A stretch of DNA of 64,000 bases. Origin: a virus. Its lineage: Duplodnaviria; Caudoviricetes. The stretch is from IMG/VR virus record IMGVR_UViG_3300011008_000049, positions 32,001-96,000 of that record, one strand, 5' to 3'. This document shows, piece by piece, positions 1-35,251 of the stretch (positions are counted from its first letter, which is position 1; every line of letters begins with the position of its first letter). The notes beneath the pieces are model-generated. The model was not told where the DNA came from and ran no database searches. It was given only the letters and a program-made list of their open reading frames with translations. Both the position numbers and the translations under genes were made by a program.

Positions 1-144
1 CATTTAACATATCATGATGAATACACCTGGGATGAGGCAAGTAAAGAAAACAACTTGTTAAAGCCTGTTTATAAAGATGGAGTTTTACTTTTTGAGCAAA
101 CTCTTTCCGAAGTTAGAAGCAATCTACACGGAGGTAATTTTTGA
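1..144 (+). CDS. C-terminal fragment of a nicotinamide/nicotinate phosphoribosyltransferase (NAMPT-like), truncated by window edge
   Basis: Frame 1 reads ...NNLLKPVYKDGVLLFEQTLSEVRSNLHGGNF*, resembling NAMPT C-termini; TGA overlaps ATG of next gene. Confidence 0.6.
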   Translation, partial: HLTYHDEYTWDEASKENNLLKPVYKDGVLLFEQTLSEVRSNLHGGNF

Positions 145-1319
145 TGATTGATAAATTTGATGGTGAATATGCTTTTTTAAGCAACTTTTTTGAAGTTCCT
201 GTAAATTATGACGGTCTTTTATATAGAAATAGTGAAGCAGCATTTCAAGCACAAAAAACCATCAATCAAAATGAACGATTACAGTTTGTGAATCTTAACG
301 CATCTCATTCAAAGAGGCTCGGAAGAACTATTGAATTACGGAAAGATTGGGAATCCATTAAAATCAGAGTTATGTATGAAATTTGCCTCGCAAAATTTTC
401 TCAAAATCCTGAACTTGCTAAAAAACTGATTAAAACCGGTGACAATATTCTTATTGAAGGCAACACTTGGAATGATACATTTTGGGGCGTATGTAACGGC
501 GAAGGCAGAAACAATCTCGGTAAAATACTGATGAGAATAAGAGCGGAACTTTCATTTGATGCGGTAAAAGTTAAAGAAAATGTCGTAAAATGGATAAAAG
601 ACATTTTTGAAACAAACGGGAAAGGGTGTAACGCCGTTGTTGGAATCTCTGGTGGAAAAGATTCAAGTGTTGTTGCTGCGCTGTGTGTTGAGGCACTTGG
701 TAAAGAAAAAGTAATCGGTGTTTTAATGCCTAATGGCGTACAAAATGATATATCTGATTCTGTAAAATTAGTTGAACATCTTGGAATCAAATATTTAACT
801 GTTAATATTTCCGATGCTTATAATGGCGTGATAAATGAAATCAATAGTATTTTTGTTCCCGAAAGAGATGGATATGAAGATATTGTTATTTCGGAGCAGA
901 CAAAGGTAAATCTTCCGGCAAGAATTAGAATGTCAACATTATATGCAGTATCACAATCTATGAATGGCAGAGTAATGAATACTTGTAATTTGTCAGAGGA
1001 TTGGGTTGGATATTCCACGAGATATGGAGATGCAGCAGGAGATTTTAGTCCAATATCATCATTAACGAGTGGTGAAGTTGTTAAAATCGGTAAAGTGTGT
1101 GGCTTACCAGATGAATTAATTTATAAAGCTCCTTCGGATGGGTTATGCGGCAAAACAGATGAGGATAATCTTGGGTTTACTTATGATGTTTTGAACACAT
1201 ATATAAGAACCGGTATATGTGATAATGATGAAATCAAAGACAAAATAGATTTAATGCACAACAAAAATAAGTTTAAGTTGCTTCCTATGCCAAAATATGA
1301 GTATAATCCAAATGATTAA
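144..1319 (+). CDS. nadE: NADAR (YbiA-like) domain fused to NH3-dependent NAD+ synthetase
   Basis: N-term FLSNF...SEAAFQAQK...W+DTFWG...G+N+LG+ILM = NADAR; C-term GISGGKDS, NLPARIRM, GYSTRYGD, KAPSDGL = NadE. Confidence 0.9.
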   Translation: MIDKFDGEYAFLSNFFEVPVNYDGLLYRNSEAAFQAQKTINQNERLQFVNLNASHSKRLGRTIELRKDWESIKIRVMYEICLAKFSQNPELAKKLIKTGDNILIEGNTWNDTFWGVCNGEGRNNLGKILMRIRAELSFDAVKVKENVVKWIKDIFETNGKGCNAVVGISGGKDSSVVAALCVEALGKEKVIGVLMPNGVQNDISDSVKLVEHLGIKYLTVNISDAYNGVINEINSIFVPERDGYEDIVISEQTKVNLPARIRMSTLYAVSQSMNGRVMNTCNLSEDWVGYSTRYGDAAGDFSPISSLTSGEVVKIGKVCGLPDELIYKAPSDGLCGKTDEDNLGFTYDVLNTYIRTGICDNDEIKDKIDLMHNKNKFKLLPMPKYEYNPND

Positions 1320-2656: not shown

Positions 2657-4087
2657 ATGGGTGATTTTCAGAAACTTACTGATTTCGGGAATCTCTATAA
2701 TTCTTGCCAAGTTTCTTTAAGAGGTAAAGGCAAGAAAAAGAGTGCGGCGAAGTTCAATGTTATGGCACTCGAACACCTATGCGTGATGAAAAGACAATTA
2801 TTGAGTCGCACATACAAAATTTCGCCGTATTCTGAATTTATCGTAAAAGAACCAAAAACAAGAGTTATCAAGTCAGGTTCTTTCAAAGATAAGGTGTTGC
2901 AGCATTGTCTATGTGATTATGTTTTGCTGCCTACAATGAAAGACATTTTTATAACAGATAATTATGCCGGACAGATAGGAAAAGGAACATTATTCGGTCT
3001 TGACAGATTATCTGAAAATCTCCAAGAGTTTTATAATGAGCATGGGAGCAAAGGATATATTCTAAAATGTGATATAACTAAATTCTTTTATTCAATCAAT
3101 CATGATTTGATGAAAGAAAGTATCAAAGAATATTTCCAGGATGATGGTATTCAATGGATATGTAATCTTTTCATAGACAGCGTAGATGGTGATGGACTTC
3201 CTCTCGGAAATCAAAGCAGTCAAGTTTTTGCACTTATATTCCTGAATGGTCTTGACTATTTTATAAAAGAAGAATTGAAGTGCGAATACTATGGTCGCTA
3301 TATGGATGACTTCTATCTGTTGTCAAATGATAAGGATTATCTAAAATACTGTTTACAACGGATTACAGAATTTTTATCTGGTTTGCGCCTATCACTAAAT
3401 AGTAAAACAGAAATTGTTCCAATGAGCAAAGGAATAAGATTTCTCGGTTTTCATACATATCTTACGGACGATGGAAAAGTAATAAGAAAATTAAATGGAG
3501 AGAACAAAAGACAAATTAAAAAGCGTTTAAGAATTTATTCAAAATTGGTACTTGCCGGAATAATGACAAGAGAAAAATTTGATGAAAGTTATAATTCTTG
3601 GCGCAATCACGCTTCTCATGGGAATTGCTTTAAGTTGTTATGTGAGATTGATAAATATGTAGAAGAATTGTTTGGAGAGAAGAAAATGGAAACCAGAATT
3701 ATTATTGCAGGTAGCAGAGGATTTACGGATTATCAATATCTTAAATCTAAAATGGAACAGTTTATCAAAGAACATCCGAATCAAAGGTTTGTCATTATAA
3801 GCGGAACTGCCAATGGAGCGGATAAACTTGGAGAACGATTTGCGATTGAAAAAGGAATTGAACTCCGCAGATTTCCAGCAGAGTGGAATAAATATGGTAA
3901 ACGAGCTGGATATTTAAGGAACGTTCAAATGTTGGATTTTGCAGCACAAGCTGACGGAGAATCTGTTCTTATGGCGTTTTGGGACGGTAGCAGTAAAGGC
4001 ACAAGGCATATGGTTAAAATTGCAAAGAACGCCGGAATTACCGTCAATGTATTTTTGAAAGAAGAAAAGAACAATGAGAATAATTAG
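2657..4087 (+). CDS. DGR reverse transcriptase fused in frame to SLOG/DUF2493 (YspA-like) domain
   Basis: GLPLGNQSSQ and RYMDD motifs; from ATG 3686 IIIAGSR...SGTANGAD...AGYLRN...FWDGSSKGT. Confidence 0.92.
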   Translation: MGDFQKLTDFGNLYNSCQVSLRGKGKKKSAAKFNVMALEHLCVMKRQLLSRTYKISPYSEFIVKEPKTRVIKSGSFKDKVLQHCLCDYVLLPTMKDIFITDNYAGQIGKGTLFGLDRLSENLQEFYNEHGSKGYILKCDITKFFYSINHDLMKESIKEYFQDDGIQWICNLFIDSVDGDGLPLGNQSSQVFALIFLNGLDYFIKEELKCEYYGRYMDDFYLLSNDKDYLKYCLQRITEFLSGLRLSLNSKTEIVPMSKGIRFLGFHTYLTDDGKVIRKLNGENKRQIKKRLRIYSKLVLAGIMTREKFDESYNSWRNHASHGNCFKLLCEIDKYVEELFGEKKMETRIIIAGSRGFTDYQYLKSKMEQFIKEHPNQRFVIISGTANGADKLGERFAIEKGIELRRFPAEWNKYGKRAGYLRNVQMLDFAAQADGESVLMAFWDGSSKGTRHMVKIAKNAGITVNVFLKEEKNNENN

Positions 4088-4429: not shown

Positions 4430-4750
4430 TATTGAGTATGCCACAACGTACAAACTATTATATAAGCGCCCGTACAACGCTGTAATAGTGTGGCAGGGAT
4501 TAGAGTGATGGTGTAATAGGTTGCATTCTGCCCATGAGGGGGCGGAGGTACGGTTCGAGTCCGGTAATATCTCGCCCAAAAAGAAAGTCCCTTAAAAGTA
4601 CAAGATATGAAAAAGCGACAAATCAAATGATGGAATTAGAAAGACTGTTTAAGCCAACAGAATGTAAAAACAAAATGGCTTGCCGGTAGCAGTGCTGCGC
4701 AGACTAAATCCGGTTGTCGCTCCCACAGGTGAAAGTCCTATGGCTCAATA
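4430..4750 (+). ncRNA. unclassified ~320-nt structured RNA with internal tRNA-like domain
   Basis: Nested helices (4430-36/4744-50, 4439-45/4489-95, 4495-4500/4587-92, 4614-21/4714-21), T-loop GGTTCGAGTCC at 4552. Confidence 0.55.
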
Positions 4751-4754
4751 ATTT

Positions 4755-4831
4755 GCGGGCATGATGTTTAATGGTTAGCATCCCAGTTTTCCAAACTGGT
4801 TGTGAGGGTTCAAATCCCTTTGCCCGCTCCA
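4755..4831 (+). tRNA. tRNA-Gly(TCC)
   Basis: cloverleaf, ccagt-ttTCCaa-actgg, CCA. Confidence 0.93.
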
Positions 4832-4835
4832 ATAT

Positions 4836-4909
4836 TGGGATATGGTGTAATGGTAACACACAAGACTTTGACTCTTGCTTTGTAGGTTCGAGTCCTGCTA
4901 TCCCAGCCA
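4836..4909 (+). tRNA. tRNA-Gln(TTG)
   Basis: caaga-ctTTGac-tcttg, CCA. Confidence 0.93.
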
Positions 4910-4912
4910 TTT

Positions 4913-5003
4913 GGAGAGGTAATCCTAATTGGTAAGGAAGCAGTTTGCTAAACTGTTAGTAACCAGCAATGGCGTGTGAGTTCGAGTCTCGCCCTCTCCG
5001 CCA
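4913..5003 (+). tRNA. tRNA-Ser(GCT)
   Basis: gcagt-ttGCTaa-actgt, long variable arm, CCA. Confidence 0.93.
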
Positions 5004-5006
5004 TTT

Positions 5007-5083
5007 AGGAGAGTAGTTTAACGGTAGAACTCCGGTCTCCAAAACCGATGTAGATGAGGGTTCAAATCCTTCCTCTCCTGCCA
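5007..5083 (+). tRNA. tRNA-Trp(CCA)
   Basis: cggt-ctCCAaa-accg, CCA. Confidence 0.9.
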
Positions 5084-5088
5084 AATAT

Positions 5089-5164
5089 GAGCCAGTAATT
5101 CAGTTGGTAGAATATCGCACTTTTAATGCGAAGGTCATGGGTTCGAGTCCCATCTGGCTCACCA
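5089..5164 (+). tRNA. tRNA-Lys(TTT)
   Basis: tcgca-ctTTTaa-tgcga, CCA. Confidence 0.93.
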
Positions 5165-5165
5165 T

Positions 5166-5243
5166 AGTGGCTATTGATAATCTTCCTTCTTTAATAGAAG
5201 AAATTATTTAAGAAAGTAGATTTTAGATTATCAGATTTCCACT
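5166..5243 (+). ncRNA. scaffold RNA unit 1
   Basis: GTGGCTAT-tgataatct-TCCTTCT-cargo-agattatca-GATTTCCAC. Confidence 0.75.
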
Positions 5244-5258
5244 CCGTTCCTTTTTGCA

Positions 5259-5332
5259 CGGCTATGTAGAAACTTCCTTCTTTATATAAAACCAAAATCA
5301 AATATTTATAGAAATAGTTTCTGCAATTACCG
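5259..5332 (+). ncRNA. scaffold RNA unit 2
   Basis: CGGCTAT-gtagaaact-TCCTTCT-cargo-agtttctgc-AATTACCG. Confidence 0.75.
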
Positions 5333-5361
5333 ATAAAATTAAATTACAAGGAGAAAAGAAA

Positions 5362-7599
5362 ATGAACGCAACTGAAAAAATCCTACTTCGCCGTAAGCAC
5401 TTTCTGATTGTCAATCCGGGTGATTCAGAGTATCAGCAGGATAAGAGTGAAAAAACTCTTGTAATTACGGCATTGAAAAATGTGCAATCTCTTGGATTCA
5501 CTTTTTCACAGGCACTTCTCGAATCACTGTTCCATTTTACGAAAACCGAGTTCAAGGCTTTTTATAAGGCGCTTATTCCTGAACTGAAGGAATTGGTTGG
5601 TGCTGATGTTACATACGAGCCGATGTACCCGAATTTTCCGGAGCAGGTCGCAAATGCAGATGATGTTGAACTTTTCATCAATGCAATCATTCACTATTGG
5701 TCTTTCGGAACTTTGATGCCGGAATATGAGAAAGATGAGCGTTTACCTCTGATTGACGATAATAAAATGACCGTTTTATCTATCGGAACGCATGAGGATT
5801 TAATGAAAATCTTCTCTAATTTGGTTGAAAGCAAAACTTCCCTTTCTATCCAGGACAAAGAGGATATTACCACTGTTGTAAAGTCTTGCACTGATTATTC
5901 TGACTATCTGCCGGACGTTATTCCTCTGAAAGAGAATGTGGCTTTTATCGGAAAACTTATTATTGAAGAAGCTCCTATCAAATCCGCAAAGGCAATTCAG
6001 AAGTATTTCAAGACTGCAACTGATGTTCTTCGTCTTGTTACCGCTCTGTCTGATGGAGATATTAGTCTTGCAACAAAGACAAAGTTTAGGAATTTGAAGC
6101 GCAGAGAACGCAGAATGATTCTTGATTTACTTGCTGGCTGCGGAAATATCACAGAAGATTTGTTCCGTTATCAGTATGAATGGATTAGAGTTGCAGAAAT
6201 TCTTCATCCCTTTGAATACAAGATTGCGAAGTATAAGAATGTAAATGCTTCTTTCAACACGCTTCGTAATGAGCATAAGCCTCTTATGTTTGGTGGTAAA
6301 GTTCAGAATGCTATTCTTGCGAAAGATATGCGTACTGCTGCTAACTTGTTAAAGACCAGACCTGGCGAATTTGCGAGACAACTTGATAAGGTTATCCGCG
6401 ACTCTGACAATGTGAACTATGTTCTGAACTGTTTCAAAGAAATTGCGGTAGAGATTTCGACTCCGGTACTCCTTCAGGTAAGACAGCATTTCATTGGTCG
6501 TATGGCTGATGAGAAAGCACCTATCAGAGTATTCTTCCCCAAGGGCAATCTTGCAAGAGCAACATCTATCAAGAATGAACTTCCGGAAATTCCCATGAAT
6601 GTTTGTAAGAACGTTGCAAGGATTTGCAGAGATGCACTTATTGAGCAGTACAGAAATAAAGATTTCATCGGAAATGTTTATATTGATGATGAGTTAAAGA
6701 ATTATCTCGTACCGTTCAGCCAGAGAAGCGCAAGCAAAGCCGTTAAGACTATTGTTCGTGGTAGCCAGCTCCCTATTTCCAACGATGCAAAAGCAATCAG
6801 AGGATTTATTTGGTGGACTAACACCGACAAGGGAAAGGGTTATTATTATGATGACGGTAGAGTTGACATTGACCTTTCAGCAGCAATTTATGATGAGAAT
6901 TGGAGATATGTTGAACACGTTTCATATACAAATATCCGCTCTCATAAGTACAGAGCATATCACTCTGGTGATATTACCAACGGTGGAAGTGTAAACGGAA
7001 AAGGCGTTGCCGAATTCCTTGATGTTGACATTGATGCTGTTGCCAGAAACGCAGGTAGATATATCGTCTATCAGGTTTACAATTATACCAGTCAGAAATT
7101 CTCTGAACTTCCTAATTGCCGTTTCGGTTGGATGGAAAGAGCGGATGTTGACAGTGGAGAAATCTTTGAACCTACCACGGTAGAAATGAAGATGGATTTG
7201 ACCGCCGAAGGAACTACCGCTATCCCTGTAATCTTTGATTGTGTAGAGCGTAAATTCATCTGGTGTGATATGAACCTTGGCATTGAGCGTTCTTATTATG
7301 GTGGCAATAACCTTGAAAGCAATTTTTCCGGCGTAACTGCGACCTGCTATGCAATGACTCACTTGAACAAGCCAAACATCTATGACCTTGTTATGCTGAA
7401 TGCGGTTGCAAGAGGCAATGTCGTAACCGACAGAAACAATGCCGACATCATTTTCAGTAATGATACGACAGTTCCTTATGAGATTGTAACCGAAATTGAT
7501 GAAATTACCGGTACTGAAAAGAGAGCAATTAAAGAAAAGACCGATGTTCCGATTATCACAGCGTTTGATACGGACTACTTTATGGGACAACTCCTTTAA
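5362..7599 (+). CDS. large helical protein with C-terminal TerD-like domain (possible divergent ROT/TROVE-TerD)
   Basis: RPGEFARQLD in helical part; DIDLSA, HSGDITNG, AEFLDVD in TerD-like part; the Ro-like assignment is inference. Confidence 0.7.
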   Translation: MNATEKILLRRKHFLIVNPGDSEYQQDKSEKTLVITALKNVQSLGFTFSQALLESLFHFTKTEFKAFYKALIPELKELVGADVTYEPMYPNFPEQVANADDVELFINAIIHYWSFGTLMPEYEKDERLPLIDDNKMTVLSIGTHEDLMKIFSNLVESKTSLSIQDKEDITTVVKSCTDYSDYLPDVIPLKENVAFIGKLIIEEAPIKSAKAIQKYFKTATDVLRLVTALSDGDISLATKTKFRNLKRRERRMILDLLAGCGNITEDLFRYQYEWIRVAEILHPFEYKIAKYKNVNASFNTLRNEHKPLMFGGKVQNAILAKDMRTAANLLKTRPGEFARQLDKVIRDSDNVNYVLNCFKEIAVEISTPVLLQVRQHFIGRMADEKAPIRVFFPKGNLARATSIKNELPEIPMNVCKNVARICRDALIEQYRNKDFIGNVYIDDELKNYLVPFSQRSASKAVKTIVRGSQLPISNDAKAIRGFIWWTNTDKGKGYYYDDGRVDIDLSAAIYDENWRYVEHVSYTNIRSHKYRAYHSGDITNGGSVNGKGVAEFLDVDIDAVARNAGRYIVYQVYNYTSQKFSELPNCRFGWMERADVDSGEIFEPTTVEMKMDLTAEGTTAIPVIFDCVERKFIWCDMNLGIERSYYGGNNLESNFSGVTATCYAMTHLNKPNIYDLVMLNAVARGNVVTDRNNADIIFSNDTTVPYEIVTEIDEITGTEKRAIKEKTDVPIITAFDTDYFMGQLL

Positions 7600-7609
7600 T
7601 TGATTGTTA

Positions 7610-7676
7610 TTGCGGCTATGGATTCCCTTCCTTCTAATAATAATATGGGATTATAAAGGGAATCCGATTTCCGCAA
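7610..7676 (+). ncRNA. scaffold RNA unit 3, Pro(UGG)-like anticodon loop cargo
   Basis: GCGGCTAT-ggattccct-TCCTTCT...ataa-taTGGga-ttat...agggaatcc-GATTTCCGC. Confidence 0.75.
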
Positions 7677-7685
7677 ACCGACATT

Positions 7686-7760
7686 TTGCGGCTGAAATAC
7701 TCATCCTTCTTTTACATAAAAACTTGAAATTTTTTAATTCAGAGTATTTAATTTCCGCGA
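7686..7760 (+). ncRNA. scaffold RNA unit 4, Ser(UGA) anticodon stem-loop cargo
   Basis: aaatactc/gagtattt stem; aaaaa-ctTGAaa-ttttt at 7718-7734. Confidence 0.8.
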
Positions 7761-7773
7761 TTTTCCTTTTCTT

Positions 7774-7853
7774 GCGGCTATTGTTTCTCATCCTTCTATG
7801 GCTGGTTACAGCACTTTACTGGTAATAAAGAGATTTAGAGAAACGCATTTCCG
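7774..7853 (+). ncRNA. scaffold RNA unit 5, D-arm-like hairpin plus Thr(GGU) anticodon stem-loop cargo
   Basis: tgtttctc/gagaaacg stem; gctg-gtta-cagc then cttta-ctGGTaa-taaag at 7814-7830. Confidence 0.8.
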
Positions 7854-7881
7854 ACATTATTTTAGAAATGAGATAAGTAGA

Positions 7882-9135
7882 TTGTCAAAAGTATTTGAAA
7901 TTATTGAAAAAGAAAAGGCAAGGCAGGACAAAACATTTGAATTGATTGCAAGTGAAAACTTTGTAAGTGAAAATGTATTAAAAGCGGTTGGCTCTTGCCT
8001 TACAAACAAGTATTCTGAAGGTTATCCAAAGAACAGAATTTCCGGCAATAAAGGAAGATATTATGGTGGTTGTCACTTTGTTGATGAACTTGAAGAATAT
8101 TGTTGTGAAAAATGGAAAGAAGTATTTAACACAGATTATCATGTAAATGTTCAACCTCATAGCGGTTCATCAGCGAATCTTGCAGCATATATGTCTATAT
8201 TGGAGCAAGGAGATACAATTCTCGCCATGAACCTCAACAATGGCGGACATCTTACTCATGGCTCTCCTGTTAATTTTTCCGGAAAACTTTTTAACATGGT
8301 TTTTTATGATGTTGATTGCAATGGCTATATAGATTATTCCGATATGGAAGATAAAATATATAGATACCGTCCGAAACTTATTCTTGCAGGAGCAAGCGCA
8401 TATTCAAGAATTATTGATTTTGAAAGAATCAGAAAAATAATTGATGATGTTCTAATTTGCATTGCTCATGAGACGGTGGAACGACAAATATTCGATTATG
8501 ATGGAAATTTGATTTCGGAGTTGCCAGAACAATATAATCCGCTGTTTATGGTCGATATGGCGCATATTGCCGGGTTGGTTGCAGCAAATATTCATCCTTC
8601 TCCTTTCGGTGTTGCAGATATTATTACTACAACTACTCATAAAACATTGAGAGGGACACGAGGCGGCTTAATTTTCTGTAAGCCAGAATTGGCAAATAAG
8701 ATAGATAGTGCAGTATTCCCTTGTTGCCAGGGTGGGGCGTTACAACACGTTATCGCAGGAAAAGCAGTTACAGCGGAAGAAGATTGCACAGAGGAATTCA
8801 AACAGTATATCGTTAATGTTGTAAATAATTGTAAAGCAATGTGCAATGAGTTTATTACATTAGGATATGATGTTGTAACTGGTGGAACAGATAATCATTT
8901 ATTTCTGATTGATTTTTCAAGAACGCATCCACATCTCACTGGAAAAATGGTTCAGGATGAACTTGATAAACACGATATTTCATTAAATAAGAATTGTGTT
9001 CCGGGAGAAAAGAGAAAACCATCAGAAACAAGTGGTGTTCGTATCGGTACGGCTGCAATGACCACAAAAGGATGCACCGAAAAAGATTTTGTAGAAGTTG
9101 CAAGGCGAATTGATAGTATTATAAAAACAATGTAA
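7882..9135 (+). CDS. glyA: serine hydroxymethyltransferase
   Basis: LIASEN, NKYSEGYP, NVQPHSG, TTTTHKTLRG; likely TTG start at 7882 because ORF start 7798 lies inside unit 5. Confidence 0.95.
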   Translation: MSKVFEIIEKEKARQDKTFELIASENFVSENVLKAVGSCLTNKYSEGYPKNRISGNKGRYYGGCHFVDELEEYCCEKWKEVFNTDYHVNVQPHSGSSANLAAYMSILEQGDTILAMNLNNGGHLTHGSPVNFSGKLFNMVFYDVDCNGYIDYSDMEDKIYRYRPKLILAGASAYSRIIDFERIRKIIDDVLICIAHETVERQIFDYDGNLISELPEQYNPLFMVDMAHIAGLVAANIHPSPFGVADIITTTTHKTLRGTRGGLIFCKPELANKIDSAVFPCCQGGALQHVIAGKAVTAEEDCTEEFKQYIVNVVNNCKAMCNEFITLGYDVVTGGTDNHLFLIDFSRTHPHLTGKMVQDELDKHDISLNKNCVPGEKRKPSETSGVRIGTAAMTTKGCTEKDFVEVARRIDSIIKTM

Positions 9136-9142
9136 TAATCAT

Positions 9143-9271
9143 GCGGCTGGATGATACCATCCTTCTAATGTAATGGGAACTATGTGTCGTTGGTTCGAGT
9201 CCAACCGTCCCGGCAATCGGGACGTGGCGCAGTTGGTAGCGCAATAGTATTTAGGGTATCGAAATTACCGC
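9143..9271 (+). ncRNA. scaffold RNA unit 6 with circularly permuted tRNA-Pro(UGG) (YrlA-like)
   Basis: TGGGA-actat-T arm-cgtcccg-gcaat-cgggacg-D arm-atagt inside gatacc/ggtatc stem. Confidence 0.85.
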
Positions 9272-9305
9272 TTAAAAATAAATATAAATATTTTTGAAGA
9301 ACCTC

Positions 9306-9334
9306 TTGACATATTTATAAAAGTGTGATATAAT
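9306..9334 (+). promoter_or_regulatory. sigma-A promoter upstream of units 7-8
   Basis: TTGACA-17-TATAAT; near-identical copy at 31852-31880. Confidence 0.85.
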
Positions 9335-9361
9335 GACCATGTAATCGAAAAGGATATATGC

Positions 9362-9437
9362 GCGGCTGGAAATGCTCATCCTTCTATCAAGGAACAAACT
9401 TTTAATTTGTCAATCTAATAGAGCATAAAATTTCCGC
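9362..9437 (+). ncRNA. scaffold RNA unit 7, Lys(UUU) anticodon stem-loop cargo
   Basis: atgctc/gagcat stem; acaaa-ctTTTaa-tttgt at 9394-9410. Confidence 0.8.
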
Positions 9438-9448
9438 ATTACATATCT

Positions 9449-9587
9449 GTCGGCTGGTTGGATTCATCCTTCTATTTACATAATGCCAAACCGCCAATCG
9501 TGGGTTCAAATCCCACCTTCTTACGGAGTAAGATGTAGCCAAGTGGATAAGGCAGCGGTCTATTAAAGAGAATCCAAAATTACCGAC
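9449..9587 (+). ncRNA. scaffold RNA unit 8 with circularly permuted tRNA (GCC anticodon remnant, Gly-like)
   Basis: tGCCaa-accgc-T arm-cttctta-cggag-taagatg-D arm-gcggt inside ttggattc/gaatccaa stem. Confidence 0.85.
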
Positions 9588-9642
9588 TTTATATTATTCG
9601 ATTATAAATAAGACGGAGAAAAACCGTGACGGAGGTTTAACG

Positions 9643-10416
9643 ATGGCAAACAAGATTACGAGACAGGCTTCAAACGAAAAAGAAAAGATGTTCCTCGAAA
9701 GGTTCAATTCTCTTTGCTACACCAGAAGCAGTTGGCAAGTTTGGTCTGATTTCATAACTGCCGCCGCTATTGCTATTGCAAATTCAACGGAACAGAACCC
9801 GAAGATACATGAAGAAAGAGAAAAAGAATTCTCAAAATGTATTGAACGGCTCGGCGGTCAGGATATTCCGGCTGAAATGCTCGGAATAATTACGATGGCT
9901 CTCGAAGAAAATTCAGAACAAGATTTCCTTGGGAACATCTTTATGAAGCTCGAACTTGGAAGCCATTGGCATGGTCAGTTCTTTACACCGTATAACATTT
10001 GCGAGTTAATGGCTGAAATCAATTCTGATAATTTGAAACAGCAGATTGAAGATAAAGGATGGATTTCAGTAAATGATTGTGCTTGCGGTGCTGGTGCAAC
10101 ACTTATCGCGGCAGCGAATGTATTCAGAAAACACGATGTTAATTTTCAAGACCATGCTTTATTTGTAGCACAGGATGTTGATAGAATTGCTGGAATGATG
10201 TGTTTCATCCAATTATCATTAATCGGATGTTCTGGCTATGTTGTAATAGCAAATTCTTTAACAAGCCCTCTCACCGGCAACAGTGCTTTGTTTCCGGAAG
10301 AAAAAGAAGAACAAGAATTCTGGTACACGCCGATGTGGTTTTCAGATGTTTGGAATATGAGACGTGCTTGGAATCTAATGGATTTAATGTTTAGGAAAAT
10401 GTCAAATGAATTATAA
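9643..10416 (+). CDS. N6-DNA methylase-like protein (HsdM-related, no obvious NPPY)
   Basis: GQFFTPY, DCACGAG motif I. Confidence 0.7.
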   Translation: MANKITRQASNEKEKMFLERFNSLCYTRSSWQVWSDFITAAAIAIANSTEQNPKIHEEREKEFSKCIERLGGQDIPAEMLGIITMALEENSEQDFLGNIFMKLELGSHWHGQFFTPYNICELMAEINSDNLKQQIEDKGWISVNDCACGAGATLIAAANVFRKHDVNFQDHALFVAQDVDRIAGMMCFIQLSLIGCSGYVVIANSLTSPLTGNSALFPEEKEEQEFWYTPMWFSDVWNMRRAWNLMDLMFRKMSNEL

Positions 10417-10591
10417 GTTTATTTGTCCGAAATGCGGTAAGCAGGTCACTGTATCAATGCCAATTACAGAATATAAACCAGATGGTCATTACTGTGAATG
10501 TGGCGAAGAATTAAAACGAGATACGAATGATTTCTGCACATATAGTCCGAGAAATATAGAAGGATTTTTCGGAACTTCTAAAAAATCATAA
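10406..10591 (+). CDS. FmdB-like zinc-ribbon protein
   Basis: YKFICPKCG...CECG. Confidence 0.6.
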   Translation: MNYKFICPKCGKQVTVSMPITEYKPDGHYCECGEELKRDTNDFCTYSPRNIEGFFGTSKKS

Positions 10592-10746
10592 ATAACGACT
10601 TTCACAAAGCCTAACCGATACACTTTATATCATGTAGTTCTCCTTTCTGTTGTTCGTTTTGTTGTTGCTCATTTACTTATTTTAATCGGTTAAAACTGCA
10701 AATGCAGAGTGCAAAGTTTATTCGATAAAGGTCTTTGCACATATAT

Positions 10747-10831
10747 GCTGGCGTGGTGGAATTGGCAGACACGCAAGATTAAGGTTCTTGTTCCGTAAGG
10801 AGTGCAGGTTCAAGTCCTGTTGCCAGCACCA
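10747..10831 (+). tRNA. tRNA-Leu(AAG)
   Basis: caaga-ttAAGgt-tcttg, long variable arm, CCA. Confidence 0.88.
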
Positions 10832-10835
10832 TTAT

Positions 10836-10922
10836 GCGGGAGTGACGGAATTGGCAGACGTAGCGGACTTAAAATCCGCTGGTAGCAATACCGTGTGGGT
10901 TCAAGTCCCATCTCCCGCACCA
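10836..10922 (+). tRNA. tRNA-Leu(TAA)
   Basis: gcgga-ctTAAaa-tccgc. Confidence 0.93.
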
Positions 10923-10926
10923 ATAT

Positions 10927-11001
10927 ACTGCATTAGCTCAACGGTTAGAGCAATCGCCTTATAAGCGATAGACATTAGTTCGACTCTACTATGCAGTACC
11001 A
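10927..11001 (+). tRNA. tRNA-Ile(TAT)
   Basis: atcgc-ctTATaa-gcgat, CCA; one T-stem mismatch. Confidence 0.85.
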
Positions 11002-11083
11002 ACGGCGACTTTCTTAAAAGTTAGTTCTTTAAGCCGGAAAAATCAAAGTAAACTACGCTTGACATTCGGAGAGACGATAATAC

Positions 11084-11173
11084 GGTGAGGTGGCAGAGTC
11101 CGGCTTATTGCACCAGTCTTGAAAACTGGCGGCGGGAAACCGTCCCTGGGTTCAAATCCCAGCCTCACCGCCA
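11084..11173 (+). tRNA. tRNA-Ser(TGA)
   Basis: ccagt-ctTGAaa-actgg, long variable arm. Confidence 0.93.
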
Positions 11174-11319
11174 TAAGATTGCCGATGATACGAATATAGG
11201 CGGTGCAAATTGCTCATAAGTGTGAATCTCGCAAAGTCATCGTTAGCGACCTCCGTGGATGCTGCTCCTATGGCTGATGGCATCTATCGGCAATCGAAAT
11301 TATATTGCTGGAGGAAACA

Positions 11320-11589
11320 ATGTTTAGAAATGTTGTGGTTGGGAAACCTCTTGTGGATGTAAGAATGTTGTTATCGGAAGATGAGGAAGATTGGGAAAGA
11401 AATGAGAAAAAAGATACTCTTTTTACTGAAACAAGATTCCTTCCGGCAATATTAAAGGAAGCAGGTGTTGTTTCGTCAACCGGAGAAATAAGAAGAAACA
11501 AACCTGACCTTGTAATAAATTTGGATAAACCAGATTGTCTATGGGTTAAATGGGGCAAGAAATTTATTTACATAGTTGTCGGTGAATAA
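11320..11589 (+). CDS. small protein with S4-like RNA-binding motif
   Basis: LKEAGVVSSTGEIRRN resembles TyrRS C-terminal S4 motif; RBS GGAGG. Confidence 0.55.
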   Translation: MFRNVVVGKPLVDVRMLLSEDEEDWERNEKKDTLFTETRFLPAILKEAGVVSSTGEIRRNKPDLVINLDKPDCLWVKWGKKFIYIVVGE

Positions 11590-11592
11590 TAT

Positions 11593-11669
11593 GCGCCATT
11601 AGTTCAGATGGATAGAACAATGGACTTCTAATCCATAGGTCGAAGGTTCAAGTCCTTCATGGCGTGCCA
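11593..11669 (+). tRNA. tRNA-Arg(TCT)
   Basis: atgga-ctTCTaa-tccat. Confidence 0.93.
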
Positions 11670-11673
11670 ATAT

Positions 11674-11758
11674 GCTGGTATGACGGAATCGGCAGACGTG
11701 ACAGACTCAAAATCTGTTGCCGAGAGGCGTGTGAGTTCAAGTCTCACTACCAGTACCA
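11674..11758 (+). tRNA. tRNA-Leu(CAA)
   Basis: acaga-ctCAAaa-tctgt. Confidence 0.93.
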
Positions 11759-11759
11759 T

Positions 11760-11835
11760 TGCGGGATAGAGAAGCGGTCATCTCACGACCCTCATAAGGT
11801 CGGAATCGTGGGTTCGAGTCCCACTCCCGCAACCA
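11760..11835 (+). tRNA. tRNA-Met(CAT), initiator-like body
   Basis: cgacc-ctCATaa-ggtcg; lacks the GGG/CCC anticodon stem of fMet. Confidence 0.88.
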
Positions 11836-11838
11836 AAT

Positions 11839-11915
11839 CTGGATGTAGTTCAGTTTGGTAGAACGCTGCATTTGGGATGCAGAGGTCGCAGGTTCGAGTC
11901 CTGTCATCCAGACCA
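11839..11915 (+). tRNA. tRNA-Pro(TGG)
   Basis: ctgca-ttTGGga-tgcag. Confidence 0.93.
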
Positions 11916-11940
11916 TTATTAAACGAAAGGAATACTACAA

Positions 11941-12753
11941 ATGAAGTACGATGCACTTGGTCAGAGAATGAAAAAGTATGAATTCATTACAAGAACACAT
12001 CTCATTCCGAGAATGCCGGTGATTATTAGAATTGATGGTAAGGCGTTTCATACTTTTACGAGAGGGTTTAAGAAACCATTTGATGAAATTCTTGTAAAGA
12101 CCATGCAGGAAACAATGAAATATTTGTGTGAAAACATTCAAGGTTGTGTTCTTGGATATACGCAGTCTGATGAAATCACGTTGGTTCTTGTTGATTACAA
12201 GAAATTAGACTCATGCTCATGGTTCGATTACAACATTCAAAAGTGTGCGAGTGTTGCGGCAAGTATGGCTACAATGGCATTTAACAGGGAATTCGCACAT
12301 CAGGTCAGACGATATAAGGAAGAACGGATTAAAGATAAAACACATATATGGAATAGTTATAAAGACAATTATTATGCAACCATATATAACGCCATTAGTA
12401 AGGGAGCTATGTTCGATGCTCGTTGTTTCAATATTCCAAAGGAAGAAGTTTGTAATAACATTCTTTGGAGACAAAATGATGCAACAAGAAATTCAATAGA
12501 AATGGTTGGTCATGCGAATTTTTCACAATCGCAACTTCACAAAAAGAGTTGTAATGATATTCAGGATATGTTGATGTTGGAACGTGGAATCAATTGGAAC
12601 AATTTCCCGACACATCTGAAACGTGGTAGTTGTTGTATTCGTGAGGAATCAGATGAATCTGGCAGAACAAGATGGGTTGTTGATACTGAAATTCCGATTT
12701 TCAAAGGAGACGGAAGAAAGTACATTGACGATTTGATTTTCATAGGAGAATAA
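11941..12753 (+). CDS. Thg1-like tRNA-His guanylyltransferase / 3'-5' polymerase
   Basis: RIDGKAFHTFT, YTQSDEI, FDAR, WRQ.DA.RNS. Confidence 0.92.
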   Translation: MKYDALGQRMKKYEFITRTHLIPRMPVIIRIDGKAFHTFTRGFKKPFDEILVKTMQETMKYLCENIQGCVLGYTQSDEITLVLVDYKKLDSCSWFDYNIQKCASVAASMATMAFNREFAHQVRRYKEERIKDKTHIWNSYKDNYYATIYNAISKGAMFDARCFNIPKEEVCNNILWRQNDATRNSIEMVGHANFSQSQLHKKSCNDIQDMLMLERGINWNNFPTHLKRGSCCIREESDESGRTRWVVDTEIPIFKGDGRKYIDDLIFIGE

Positions 12754-33890: not shown

Positions 33891-35251
33891 ATCTTCCTAT
33901 GCAAGTTGAATTTCTTCTTAACAGATTGCAGGAAGCTGGATTTGAAGCATATGTTGTTGGCGGTTGTGTTAGAGATAGCATTATGGGGCTTACTCCGCAC
34001 GATTGGGATATATGTACTTCTGCATTGCCGGAACAAGTCATTGAGATTTTCAAAGACCAAAATGTTGTTCCAACTGGATTAAAACATGGAACGGTAACTG
34101 TTATTCTTGAACAATCCCCTATTTGTGAGAGTAATTCTTTTGAAATAACAACCTATCGTGTTGAGGGAGATTATCAAGATAATCGCCATCCGGAATATCT
34201 CGAATTTGTTTCTGACCTTTCACTTGACCTTATGCGCAGAGACTTTACAATTAACGCAATGGCATACAATTATAAAGATGGTCTGATTGATTTATACGGT
34301 GGAGTAGACGATATTAAAGACAGAGTAATCAAATGTGTCGGCAATCCGGATGATAGATTTCAAGAAGATGCTTTAAGGATTATAAGAACAATCAGATTTG
34401 CTCTGCGGTTTGGTTTTGACATTGATTTAGATACCTATAATTCAATGCAAAAATATAAACATCTTTTGAAAAATATCTCTGCGGAACGTATTAGCTCCGA
34501 ATTAACCAAAATTTTTGAAACAACAGAATTCAATTACGATGTTAAGAAGTTTTTCTCTTTTGATGGAGATGGCAGCCGTGATATTCAAGCAGAGAGTCCT
34601 ATTGTAGAATGCCTGTTAGATTTAGTAGATACTTTTCTTAACAGAAATGTAGAACGAGAAACTGATTTTATAATGTCAGGACTTGCAGAAGCAGATAAAG
34701 ATTTATCAACTTGTTTGACTATCATATTTGATGATGACAATATAGAAGATATTCTAAAAACATTGCGGTTTTCAAATGATGTTGTTGAAGCATCCGTAAA
34801 AATTCGAGAATATGGATATAAAATTTTAACAGAGTCAAATGAATGGGCGCGGTCATACATTATTAAACAATATGCGCAAAGCCATGATAGTGTTGAGCTT
34901 CGATATTATGCAAGAAAACTCTTGAACCAAGTGTCTTGTTGCCCGATAGAAAGTATTATTTCGTTTGCCAAATCGTTATGTAAAGATAATGAATATATGG
35001 AGATTGCATTGAAGGTATTGGAATCGCAGGTTTGCGATTGCAGAAATAATAACGAAGTATATAAGATTTCGTATCTTGCTATTAACGGAAACGATTTGCT
35101 CGAATTAGGATATAAAGGAAAAGAAATCGGAATTGCTCTTAACCGATTGCTTGATATGGTTATGAAAGAAGAAGTAATGAACATAAAAGCAGATTTGATT
35201 ACCGCGCTTGAAACTATAAAAGAGGATGAAAACGATGAGGTTGTGACATAA
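33878..35251 (+). CDS. CCA-adding enzyme / poly(A) polymerase family
   Basis: VGGCVRD, DWD, RRDFTINA, EDALRIIR. Confidence 0.92.
   Translation: MERINLPMQVEFLLNRLQEAGFEAYVVGGCVRDSIMGLTPHDWDICTSALPEQVIEIFKDQNVVPTGLKHGTVTVILEQSPICESNSFEITTYRVEGDYQDNRHPEYLEFVSDLSLDLMRRDFTINAMAYNYKDGLIDLYGGVDDIKDRVIKCVGNPDDRFQEDALRIIRTIRFALRFGFDIDLDTYNSMQKYKHLLKNISAERISSELTKIFETTEFNYDVKKFFSFDGDGSRDIQAESPIVECLLDLVDTFLNRNVERETDFIMSGLAEADKDLSTCLTIIFDDDNIEDILKTLRFSNDVVEASVKIREYGYKILTESNEWARSYIIKQYAQSHDSVELRYYARKLLNQVSCCPIESIISFAKSLCKDNEYMEIALKVLESQVCDCRNNNEVYKISYLAINGNDLLELGYKGKEIGIALNRLLDMVMKEEVMNIKADLITALETIKEDENDEVVT

What the first reader, a model, noticed from the sequence alone, without database searches (positions are those of the whole stretch)
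9143..9587. Two circularly permuted tRNAs (3' half before 5' half) opened at the anticodon loop
Unit 6: TGG-GA, actat, T arm gttgg-ttcgagt-ccaac, acceptor 3' strand cgtcccg (9206-9212), linker gcaat, acceptor 5' strand cgggacg (9218-9224, 7/7 pairs), D arm gcgc-agttggta-gcgc, atagt. This is a permuted tRNA-Pro(UGG). Unit 8 has the same order with GCC-AA, accgc/gcggt, T arm gtggg-ttcaaat-cccac, cttctta-cggag-taagatg (6/7). The acceptor end is sealed by a 5-nt loop with no CCA, so it cannot be charged as is. The topology matches YrlA, but positions 34-38 of the anticodon loop are retained. Inference: either mimics of wobble-cleaved tRNA, or precursors matured by cleavage and ligation using the phage RNA ligase, PNK-HD and CCA enzyme, as for algal permuted tRNAs.
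Basis: partly seen in the sequence, partly recalled or inferred. Interest (0 to 1): 0.85.

Follow-up and report, generated by a model that had tools for sequence, protein, structure and literature searches.

The report
Sealed inside-out tRNA mimics on phage Y-like RNAs
The two "scrambled tRNAs" are real, conserved RNA folds, but they are most likely not tRNA genes: they are tRNA-shaped parts of small RNAs that share one handle and sit beside a phage protein shaped like the RNA-binding ring Ro60, much like the bacterial Y RNA called YrlA.

Summary
Observation confirmed. Units 6 (9143-9271) and 8 (9450-9586) each run 3' tRNA half, sealed acceptor, 5' tRNA half. Re-permuted, ARAGORN calls them tRNA-Pro(UGG) and tRNA-Gly(GCC). 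Relatives support every helix by covariation, and the universal tRNA core bases are invariant.

Interpretation partly supported. The YrlA topology is right: Rfam YrlA is the only family hit (E 1.9e-5 and 0.14), below its threshold. The maturation model is not supported:
- The "anticodon" letters drift among orthologues (UGG/AGG/GGG/AAG; GCC/ACC/AUC).
- One orthologue of unit 8 is a plain hairpin.
- Some relatives seal the acceptor with UUCG or GAAA tetraloops.
- The flanks are a handle (NCGG, CUR, covarying 6-bp stem, invariant UCCUUCU, AUUWCC) shared with units whose cargo is not a permuted tRNA.

Such units lie directly beside a 745-aa gene in 22 of 24 related phage loci by my strict finder. 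Its model has a TerD domain. Its best other matches among 48,161 chains are the three Ro60 representatives (Z 8.7-10.1; next 6.5).

Best reading: Y-RNA-like small RNAs with a YrlA-type tRNA mimic, partnering a Ro60-like protein. The function of the mimic (bait or adaptor) is inferred.

The scan has noted this same handle plus TerD/Ro-like protein system in at least eight other genomes. I found no paper describing it.

The parts
9143..9271 (+). Unit 6: handle RNA with a Pro-like permuted tRNA mimic.
- S1: 9143-9146 with 9268-9271
- 5' loop CUGGAU: 9147-9152
- S2: 9153-9158 with 9255-9260
- AUCCUUCU: 9159-9166
- UGGGA: 9174-9178
- anticodon-type stem: 9179-9183 with 9244-9248
- V loop: 9184-9188
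- T arm: 9189-9205
- sealed acceptor: 9206-9212, loop 9213-9217, 9218-9224
- D arm: 9227-9242
- 3' loop GAAAUUA: 9261-9267
   Evidence: YrlA 33.9 bits, E 1.9e-5; re-permuted = tRNA-Pro tgg; covariation in 12 orthologues.
9450..9586 (+). Unit 8: handle RNA with a second permuted tRNA mimic.
- S1: 9450-9453 with 9583-9586
- S2: 9460-9465 with 9570-9575
- AUCCUUCU: 9466-9473
- UACAUAAU-type linker: 9474-9484
- GCCAA: 9485-9489
- stem: 9490-9494 with 9555-9559
- T arm: 9500-9516
- sealed acceptor: 9517-9523, loop 9524-9528, 9529-9535 (6/7 pairs)
- D arm: 9538-9553
   Evidence: YrlA 20.5 bits, E 0.14; re-permuted = tRNA-Gly gcc; RNAalifold, 19 of 33 pairs compensatory.
9362..9437 (+). Unit 7: same handle. 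The cargo is a 5-bp hairpin with the 7-nt loop CUUUUAA, identical to the anticodon loop of the phage's own tRNA-Lys(UUU).
   Evidence: fold; tRNA-Lys sequence; this loop recurs in 7 distinct units of relatives.
9306..9334 (+). Consensus sigma-70-type promoter (TTGACA, 17 nt, TATAAT, with TG) in front of units 7 and 8. L067 has a like promoter in the same place.
   Evidence: (12 of 12 matches).
5362..7599 (+). 745-aa gene, the likely protein partner. It has a helical Ro60-like region (about residues 135-450 plus the C-terminal end) and a TerD-fold domain at about 470-660.
   Evidence: fold searches; units flank this gene in relatives; phrog_33734.
5166..5335 (+). Units 1 and 2: same handle with other cargo, directly after tRNA-Lys and before the 745-aa gene.
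7611..7856 (+). Units 3, 4 and 5: same handle. The cargo of units 4 and 5 is anticodon-stem-loop look-alikes (CUUGAAA, CUGGUAA).

Best explanation
Units 6 and 8 are two members of a family of at least nine small non-coding RNAs in this phage that share one handle. The handle is a terminal stem NCGG:CCGN, an internal loop with CUR opposite AUUW, a 6-bp stem that differs in every copy, and the invariant single-stranded run UCCUUCU.

In these two members the variable cargo is a tRNA body without a closed anticodon loop. The T arm, an acceptor helix sealed by a 5-nt loop and the D arm are closed by an anticodon-type stem that leads into the handle. This is the design of the tRNA-like domain of the bacterial Y RNA YrlA.

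Inferred:
- The handle binds the adjacent 745-aa Ro60-like/TerD protein to form a Ro/Y-RNA-type particle.
- The tRNA-shaped part folds into an L shape that cannot be charged or decode.
- It serves as bait or adaptor for proteins that recognise tRNA: host tRNA-cutting defence nucleases, PNPase, or tRNA repair and modification enzymes.
- The modules probably arose from tRNA genes. Unit 6 has a Pro-like body, and some relatives keep ACCA at the start of the sealing loop.

Shown: the fold, its conservation, the handle, and the gene-RNA linkage. Inferred: the binding and the function.
For: Fold and selection:
- Covariation in all helices and an invariant tRNA core.
- ARAGORN accepts the re-permuted forms.

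YrlA likeness:
- YrlA is the only Rfam family hit in the window and in relatives, at 20-43 bits and E down to 2.8e-6.
- The T arm, sealed acceptor, D arm order is that of YrlA as described in PMC4201824.

Handle:
- Three exact copies in the finding and none in 100 shuffles.
- Eight pattern matches in the genome.
- 124 units in relatives, all on the strand of the 745-aa gene and directly next to it in 22 of 24 loci.
- Units with variant handles in four of the five loci the strict finder scored nil or one.
- No p745 match in the 48 loci fetched by the neighbouring methylase-like gene, and the first unit finder found one stray candidate there.

Protein:
- AF2 model with pLDDT 82.
- TerD domain at Z 14.7-15.6.
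- The next best of 48,161 chains are the three Ro60 representatives: Z 10.1, 9.7 and 8.7 over 319-336 residues spanning nearly the whole Ro60 chain. The next match is 6.5.
- The N-terminal domain alone again ranks two Ro60 proteins first: Z 8.6 and 7.6, next 6.0.

Precedent: phage Ro60 genes with adjacent Y-like RNAs (PMC12135203; PMC4201824).
Against: - No sequence-level link of the protein to TROVE/Ro60.
- The fold Z scores (8-10) lie in the range where helical repeat proteins can match by common arrangement alone.
- YrlA scores are below Rfam's threshold of 69 bits.
- The Rsr-binding motif GNCGAAN0-1G is absent.
- No binding, expression or processing data exist.
- Unit 6 has no promoter of its own and follows the SHMT stop codon by 8 nt, so it must be cut out of a longer transcript.
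- Unit 6 keeps AU and UGGGA where a tRNA-Pro(UGG) anticodon loop would be. This could mean the anticodon letters matter.
Confidence: 0.68

Rival explanations
1. True circularly permuted tRNA genes. The precursor is cut on both sides of the handle, positions 33 and 34 are joined by the phage RNA ligase and kinase, and the acceptor loop is opened by RNase P and 3' trimming. CCA is then added, giving working tRNA-Pro and tRNA-Gly.
For: - Re-permuted sequences pass ARAGORN.
- Unit 6 keeps AU...UGGGA, matching the loop of a tRNA-Pro(UGG).
- The phage encodes an RNA ligase, an AAA_33 kinase, a CCA-adding enzyme and a Thg1-like protein.
- Some relatives keep ACCA at the start of the sealing loop.
- M. 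smegmatis YrlA can be cut by RNase P and receive CCA in vitro (PMC4201824).
Against: - The anticodon letters drift among orthologues and include A34 forms.
- One unit-8 orthologue is only a hairpin.
- Relatives have UUCG, GAAA and cUUCGg caps.
- The handle is shared with units whose cargo is not a permuted tRNA.
- No splicing endonuclease, RtcB or ribozyme match was found.
- A canonical tRNA-Pro(UGG) is already present.
- The body of unit 8 lies nearer to Cys and Gln tRNAs than to Gly, though this is a weak result.
Confidence: 0.06
2. Mimics of anticodon-cleaved tRNA. The body, with its loop held open by the handle, imitates the product of a host anticodon nuclease. It either blocks that nuclease or engages the repair enzymes.
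For: - The opening lies where positions 33 and 34 would be.
- Sister units display closed anticodon-loop look-alikes of Lys(UUU), Pro(UGG), Cys(GCA) and Ser(UGA). From my own knowledge, tRNA-Lys(UUU) is a known nuclease target.
- tRNA repair genes are in the genome.
Against: - The linkers at the opening are long (15-19 nt and 4-8 nt) and not conserved as loop halves.
- In L188 (8271-8400) the anticodon-type hairpin is closed and the chain opens between the D arm and that hairpin instead.
- No nuclease target is known for this host.
Confidence: 0.12
3. Cis-acting transcript elements (processing sites, stabilisers or translational operators) with no dedicated protein partner. The tRNA-like parts would merely recruit RNase P or RNase Z to cut the polycistronic RNA.
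For: - The units lie between genes and next to tRNAs, with no terminators.
- Unit 1 starts 2 nt after tRNA-Lys.
- Unit 5 overlaps the predicted SHMT start.
Against: - A processing signal would not need an invariant handle with nine or more different cargoes.
- It would also not need strict linkage to one protein gene down to 35% identity.
- The sealed acceptor is a poor RNase P/Z substrate where it is capped by a tetraloop.
Confidence: 0.08
4. Decayed or rearranged tRNA pseudogenes without function.
For: They lie in a region rich in tRNA genes.
Against: Compensatory changes in every helix and invariant tertiary-contact bases across phages whose partner protein has diverged to 35-77% identity.
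Confidence: 0.02

Closest known systems
YrlA, the tRNA-like Y RNA of bacteria and mycobacteriophages bound by Ro60/Rsr (Rfam RF02553; Chen et al. 2014, PMC4201824)
   Same: - The order T arm, acceptor-like helix sealed by a loop, D arm, closed by an anticodon-type stem whose strands lead to the RNA's paired 5' and 3' ends.
- The tRNA tertiary-contact bases are kept.
- The gene lies next to the gene of the presumed protein partner.
- Several such RNAs occur per locus.
   Different: - The protein-binding module is unrelated: GGCUR / UCCUUCU / AUUWCC instead of the GNCGAA-type motif.
- Scores are below Rfam's threshold.
- The partner has no TROVE sequence signature and carries a TerD domain.
- The same handle also carries cargo that is not a tRNA body (anticodon-loop look-alikes, minihelices).
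- There are 8-9 copies per genome.
Ro60 of Thermus phage phiLo with Yrl1 and Yrl2 (PMC12135203; PDB 9L5Y)
   Same: A phage-encoded ring-type RNA-binding protein with small RNAs encoded beside its gene. 9L5Y is the best non-TerD structural match of the full model (Z 10.1).
   Different: - phiLo Ro60 is a recognisable TROVE protein.
- Its RNAs are stem-bulge-stem Y RNAs with a CGAA motif.
- The passages I read mention no tRNA-like domain in them.
Circularly permuted tRNA genes of the red alga Cyanidioschyzon merolae
   Same: The 3' half is encoded before the 5' half, and re-permutation gives a normal cloverleaf.
   Different: - As I recall them, those precursors are circularised at a bulge-helix-bulge motif by the splicing endonuclease and ligase, and they give decoding tRNAs with conserved anticodons.
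- Here no such enzyme or motif is found, the anticodon letters drift, and the flanks are a handle shared with non-tRNA cargo.
Handle RNAs with an ACAGCAA clamp beside DUF2828-type Ro60-like proteins
   Same: A sealed, inside-out tRNA mimic mounted on a conserved handle next to a Ro60-like gene in phages.
   Different: - The handle differs: ACAGCAA is not enriched here and is absent from 4,600-12,000.
- Pfam finds no family at all in the 745-aa protein.

Membership tests
YrlA (Rfam RF02553) | tRNA-like domain in the order T arm, sealed acceptor-like helix, D arm, closed by an anticodon-type stem | tested here: met
   Model positions 23-85 align to both units. The helices are supported by covariation.
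YrlA (Rfam RF02553) | Score at or above Rfam's gathering threshold (69 bits) | tested here: not met
   33.9 and 20.5 bits in the window. Relatives score 30-43 bits.
YrlA (Rfam RF02553) | Rsr-binding motif GNCGAAN0-1G near the 5' end (PMC4201824) | tested here: not met
   The 5' ends read NCGGCUGG..., and the conserved letters are GGCUR, UCCUUCU and AUUWCC.
YrlA (Rfam RF02553) | Encoded next to a TROVE-domain Ro60 gene | tested here: inconclusive
   No Pfam TROVE match anywhere in the genome. The adjacent 745-aa protein's best non-TerD structural matches are Ro60 proteins.
YrlA (Rfam RF02553) | tRNA-type modifications; recognition by RNase P and the CCA-adding enzyme | not testable with these tools
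   Needs RNA from infected cells or in vitro assays.
Circularly permuted tRNA gene | 3' half before 5' half, and the re-permuted sequence is recognised as a tRNA | tested here: met
   ARAGORN calls tRNA-Pro(tgg) and tRNA-Gly(gcc).
Circularly permuted tRNA gene | Anticodon conserved among orthologues and fitting the tRNA body | tested here: not met
   UGG, AGG, GGG, AAG for unit 6 and GCC, ACC, AUC for unit 8. One orthologue is a hairpin only.
Circularly permuted tRNA gene | Processing machinery and signal for joining the ends (bulge-helix-bulge with splicing endonuclease, or flanking ribozymes) | tested here: not met
   No tRNA_int_endo and no RtcB in the genome. No ribozyme family at E up to 10. 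The flanks form the shared handle.
Circularly permuted tRNA gene | Mature, CCA-ended tRNA with a 33-34 junction | not testable with these tools
   Needs tRNA-seq or RT-PCR.
Canonical tRNA (RF00005) | Detected as a tRNA in native order | tested here: not met
   Neither ARAGORN nor Rfam tRNA calls 9143-9587.
Ro60/TROVE protein (for the 745-aa neighbour) | TROVE sequence signature | tested here: not met
   No Pfam family at E up to 10. A profile search against PDB sequences finds only a weak TerD hit.
Ro60/TROVE protein (for the 745-aa neighbour) | Helical-repeat ring plus vWA-type domain fold | tested here: inconclusive
   Ro60 chains are the top non-TerD matches: Z 8.7-10.1 over 319-336 residues, next 6.5. 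For the N-terminal domain alone: Z 8.6 and 7.6, next 6.0. Z is below the level that is safe for helical repeats.

The most novel reading that the evidence does not exclude
The units are working parts of an RNA-level tRNA supply. Either they are the first permuted tRNA genes outside eukaryotes and archaea, matured by the phage ligase, kinase and CCA enzyme. Or, after RNase P opens the sealed loop (some relatives keep ACCA there), they are two-piece chargeable tRNA bodies held on a Ro60-like ring.
Probability: 0.06. Interest if true: 0.95.

Novelty: new variant of a known kind. Interest (0 to 1): 0.68.

Why it matters
Why YrlA-type Y RNAs imitate tRNA is, to my knowledge, still an open question. 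This phage group offers a natural series on one handle: whole tRNA bodies, acceptor/T minihelices and bare anticodon loops, all beside one Ro60-like protein. That makes the question testable by asking which host or phage proteins each cargo captures.

It also widens the Ro/Y-RNA particle to a protein that sequence searches cannot recognise as Ro60. It serves as a warning for annotation too: re-permuting such elements yields convincing but spurious tRNA calls.

If the cargoes act as bait for tRNA-cutting defence nucleases, this would be a new kind of phage counter-defence.

Tried and rejected
- **Exact-pattern scan of viral contigs with the handle.** Most of the 120 loci were unrelated repeats. 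Only L067 and L002 were relatives.
- **Loci fetched by the neighbouring methylase-like gene.** They held no units. This became a negative control.
- **Known self-cleaving ribozymes.** I read the handle against what I recall of the hammerhead and HDV-like cores and rejected both. Unit 7 lacks the CUGAUGA/GAAA core, and no P1 partner exists. Rfam gives no ribozyme or riboswitch match at E up to 10.
- **Metazoan Y-RNA stem.** The handle's GGCUGG resembles the start of that stem (GGCUGGUCCGA, from my own knowledge), but the 3' strand does not pair in that way.
- **Nearest-canonical-tRNA test of isotype.** Scores were low and uninformative. It shows only that the units are not recent copies of phage tRNAs, and that unit 8 lies nearer Cys and Gln than Gly.
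- **Link to the upstream reverse transcriptase.** Synteny is not kept in distant relatives that still have units.
- **ACAGCAA handle of earlier scan notes.** It is not present near the units.
- **Weak Rfam hits S774 and tmRNA.** S774 spans the promoter and the start of unit 7. The tmRNA hit is only the T arm of unit 8. I treat both as chance or partial matches.
- **blastn against deposited phage genomes.** It gave only a 70-nt tRNA-like match in a Vibrio phage.
Full report
**What is there.** The stretch 9143-9587 holds three co-oriented units. Each starts with NCGGCUGG, has 8 variable bases and then AUCCUUCU. This pattern occurs three times here and never in 100 shuffles. Each unit ends with AUU(A/U)CCGN.

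The six bases before AUCCUUCU differ in every unit (GAUACC, AUGCUC, GGAUUC). In each case they are perfectly complementary to six bases just before the 3' motif (GGUAUC, GAGCAU, GAAUCC). The outermost base pair also covaries (G:C, G:C, U:A).

So each unit is a handle made of S1, an internal loop, S2 and the run UCCUUCU, enclosing a variable cargo. Single-sequence folds recover S1 and S2 in all three units. For the tRNA-like cargo they recover only the T arm and the sealed acceptor.

**The cargo of units 6 and 8.** In order it contains the 3' strand of an anticodon-type stem, a variable loop, the T arm, the acceptor 3' strand, a 5-nt loop, the acceptor 5' strand, the D arm and the 5' strand of the anticodon-type stem.
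- In native order neither ARAGORN nor the Rfam tRNA model sees them.
- Re-permuted in silico, ARAGORN calls tRNA-Pro(tgg) and tRNA-Gly(gcc).
- With permissive thresholds, the only meaningful Rfam match is the tRNA-like core (positions 23-85 of 114) of YrlA. It scores 33.9 bits (E 1.9e-5) for unit 6 and 20.5 bits (E 0.14) for unit 8, below the family threshold of 69.

**Relatives.** The window is part of a 152.6-kb, 99% complete viral record. A looser pattern finds eight units in the genome: seven lie around a 745-aa gene (5362-7599) and the SHMT gene, and one lies on the other strand beside tRNA-Glu and tRNA-Thr.

Using the 745-aa protein as bait gave 24 phage loci with 35-77% identity.
- A search for the motif plus the S2 pairing found 124 units in them. 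All are on the strand of the gene and directly before or after it, in 22 of 24 loci.
- Four of the five loci that this strict finder scored nil or one (L182, L183, L185 and L192, together with L190, which it did not recover) also carry units with slightly different handles.
- The 48 loci fetched through the neighbouring methylase-like gene hold no copy of the 745-aa gene. My first unit finder found only one stray candidate in them.
- The reverse transcriptase, SHMT and Thg1-like neighbours are not kept in distant relatives.

The units therefore travel with the 745-aa gene.

**Is the tRNA-like fold under selection?** Yes.
- For 12 unit-6-type sequences (alignment A2), 96.8% of cells pair in the named structure, against 36-46% when partners are slid. 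21 of 34 pairs show changes on both sides, and 0 of 500 shuffles reach the observed values.
- The acceptor helix alone has compensatory changes in 6 of its 7 pairs.
- The letters at tRNA positions 8, 14, 18, 19, 21, 46, 54-56 and 58 are invariant or nearly so. This is what an L-shaped fold with a D-loop/T-loop contact requires.
- RNAalifold, run without guidance on six unit-8-type sequences, returns the same design, with 19 of 33 pairs compensatory.
- The YrlA model hits such units in five further loci at 30-43 bits (E 2.8e-6 to 1.3e-2).

**Are they tRNA genes awaiting maturation?** The comparative data argue against it.
1. The letters at the would-be positions 34-38 are not conserved among clear orthologues. 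For the unit-6 type they read UGGGA, AGGGA, AGGGG, GGGGG and AAGGA. For the unit-8 type they read GCCAA, ACCAA and AUCAA. From my own knowledge, anticodons starting with A are not normal in bacteria apart from Arg(ACG).
2. The unit-8 orthologue of the syntenic phage L067 has the same handle and linkers, but it carries a plain 6-bp hairpin where the tRNA body should be.
3. The sealing loop varies from 3 to 11 nt. In several relatives it is a stable cap (UUCG, GAAA, cUUCGg), which suggests a helix meant to stay closed.
4. The flanks are not a tRNA-specific processing signal. The same handle carries other cargo. Of 103 distinct units:
   - 18 have T arm, sealed acceptor and D arm;
   - 6 have only a T-arm/acceptor minihelix;
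   - 9 have a T arm only;
   - 35 have a 5-bp hairpin with a 7-nt anticodon-like loop (CUUUUAA seven times, UUUGGGA five, CUGCAAA four, CUUGAAA three);
   - 35 have something else.
5. The genome lacks a tRNA splicing endonuclease and RtcB, and no ribozyme family matches.
6. A normal tRNA-Pro(UGG) is already present among the 15 tRNAs.

In favour of maturation:
- The phage does encode an RNA ligase (window 43389-44027), an AAA_33 kinase (44636-45043), a CCA-adding enzyme (33947-34330) and a Thg1-like protein (11941-12753).
- In L174, L177 and L190 the sealing loop begins with ACCA.

I read the ACCA as a trace of origin: a 3' half with discriminator, CCA and spacer joined to the next 5' half in a tandem tRNA array. 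It does leave open that RNase P could open some of these loops, as was shown in vitro for M. smegmatis YrlA (PMC4201824).

**The retained anticodon letters.** Unit 6 has a Pro-like body by my own knowledge of bacterial tRNA-Pro (C1:G72 and the GCGCAGUUGGUAGCGC D arm). It also keeps AU...UGGGA, so descent from a tRNA-Pro(UGG) is plausible.

However, GGA or GGGA placed directly before the cargo helix is also found in units whose cargo is not a tRNA body. Unit 7 has AAGGA, and relatives have UAGGA and UGGA before the Lys-like hairpin. These letters can pair with the invariant UCC: 88.9% of cells pair, but no covariation is possible because UCC never varies (helix 3). I therefore rate 'part of the handle' as somewhat more likely than 'retained anticodon'.

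For unit 8 the label Gly(GCC) is weak. Its nearest canonical tRNAs in these phages are Cys(GCA) and Gln, at low scores, and its orthologues read ACC and AUC.

**The protein partner.** The 745-aa protein has no Pfam family even at E 10 and belongs to phrog_33734 of unknown function. A profile of 18 homologues finds nothing in PDB sequences except a weak TerD hit.

An AlphaFold2 model built with this alignment has pLDDT 82.
- Residues about 470-660 are a TerD fold (Z 14.7-15.6).
- In a search of 48,161 representative chains that does not rely on Foldseek, the next three matches are the three Ro60 representatives. Thermus phage phiLo Ro60 scores Z 10.1, Deinococcus Rsr 9.7 and Xenopus Ro 8.7.
- Each of these aligns 319-336 residues spanning almost the whole Ro60 chain, including its C-terminal vWA part. 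The next match drops to 6.5 with about 100 residues.
- The N-terminal 470 residues, modelled alone, again put two Ro60 proteins first (Z 8.6 and 7.6; next 6.0).

These Z values are modest for helical repeat proteins, so I call the protein Ro60-like with about 75% confidence. The adjacency to YrlA-like RNAs is independent support, because Ro60 genes of bacteria and phages typically have their Y RNAs next to them (PMC4201824; PMC12135203).

**Mechanism proposed.**

Shown:
- A family of structured RNAs with a conserved handle and exchangeable cargo, linked to one protein gene.
- In units 6 and 8, a cargo that is a selected, L-shape-competent tRNA body with a sealed acceptor and no closed anticodon loop.

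Inferred:
- The handle (GGCUR, UCCUUCU, AUUWCC) is the binding site of the Ro60-like protein.
- The RNAs are released from longer transcripts. Units 7 and 8 follow a perfect sigma-70-type promoter at 9306-9334, no terminators are found, and unit 6 follows the SHMT stop codon.
- The tRNA-shaped cargo attracts proteins that recognise the tRNA elbow and acceptor. These could be captured as decoy targets (tRNA-cutting defence nucleases), or brought to RNAs held by the ring (PNPase, or the phage's tRNA repair enzymes), as Y RNAs tether PNPase to Rsr.

Which of these applies cannot be decided here.

**Comparison and novelty.** In how it works and in its design, the closest known thing is YrlA with Ro60/Rsr. 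It is not a member of Rfam YrlA:
- it scores below threshold;
- the Rsr-binding motif is absent;
- the partner has no TROVE signature;
- a TerD domain has been added.

It is not a permuted tRNA gene in the algal sense. Full-text searches found no description of permuted tRNA-like RNAs of this kind in phages, nor of a TerD-bearing Ro60-like protein.

Earlier notes of this scan, which I saw after forming my reading, report the same handle and TerD/Ro-like protein in at least eight other genomes. They also report a second handle type (ACAGCAA) with another Ro60-like protein. So the system is recurrent in the scan but apparently unpublished.

My verdict is a new variant of a known kind.

Noticed in passing
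window 9362-9437 (unit 7), 7688-7759 (unit 4), 7773-7856 (unit 5): The cargo of sister units is a 5-bp hairpin with a 7-nt loop identical to real anticodon loops: CUUUUAA as in the phage's own tRNA-Lys(UUU), CUUGAAA (Ser UGA) and CUGGUAA (Thr GGU). CUUUUAA recurs in 7 distinct units of relatives, UUUGGGA (Pro) in 5 and CUGCAAA (Cys) in 4.
   Followed up: partly
window 7773-7856 and ORF 7798-9135: Unit 5 overlaps the first ATG of the SHMT reading frame (7798). The Pfam SHMT match starts only at residue 31, so the true start may lie downstream of the unit, or the unit may control translation.
   Followed up: no
L174:8434-8564, L177:6009-6135, L190:~265-400: In these relatives the loop sealing the acceptor begins with ACCA (accac, accat, accatttttcc). 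This looks like a discriminator plus CCA left over from a tandem tRNA junction. Other relatives have UUCG or GAAA tetraloops instead.
   Followed up: partly
L171:4483-4567, L177:5424-5507, L188:8953-9047: Some units carry only a T arm plus sealed acceptor (a tRNA minihelix) without a D arm.
   Followed up: no
L188:8271-8400: A unit with a closed Leu(UAA)-like anticodon hairpin (UUGC-CUUAAAA-GCAA), followed by the T arm, a UUCG-sealed acceptor and the D arm. Here the chain opens between the D arm and the anticodon arm, not in the anticodon loop.
   Followed up: no
window 2657-4087: Reverse transcriptase (RVT_1) fused to a YAcAr/SLOG domain, upstream of the tRNA array. It is syntenic in closer relatives only.
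   Followed up: partly
window 141-1319 and 11941-12753: A NADAR + NAD synthase fusion, and a Thg1-like 3'-5' polymerase next to the second tRNA array. Together with the RNA ligase, kinase and CCA enzyme elsewhere in the window, this looks like a tRNA/NAD counter-defence region.
   Followed up: no
genome G000:C1:150512-150533 (minus strand, outside the window): A ninth handle motif (GGCUAUGUUAUAGCUUCCUUCU) beside tRNA-Glu and tRNA-Thr on the minus strand, far from the 745-aa gene.
   Followed up: no
window 5164-5168; L067:3360-3440; L002:5990-6085: The first unit starts 2-6 nt after the CCA of tRNA-Lys(UUU) in three phages, so its 5' end may be made by tRNA 3' processing.
   Followed up: no
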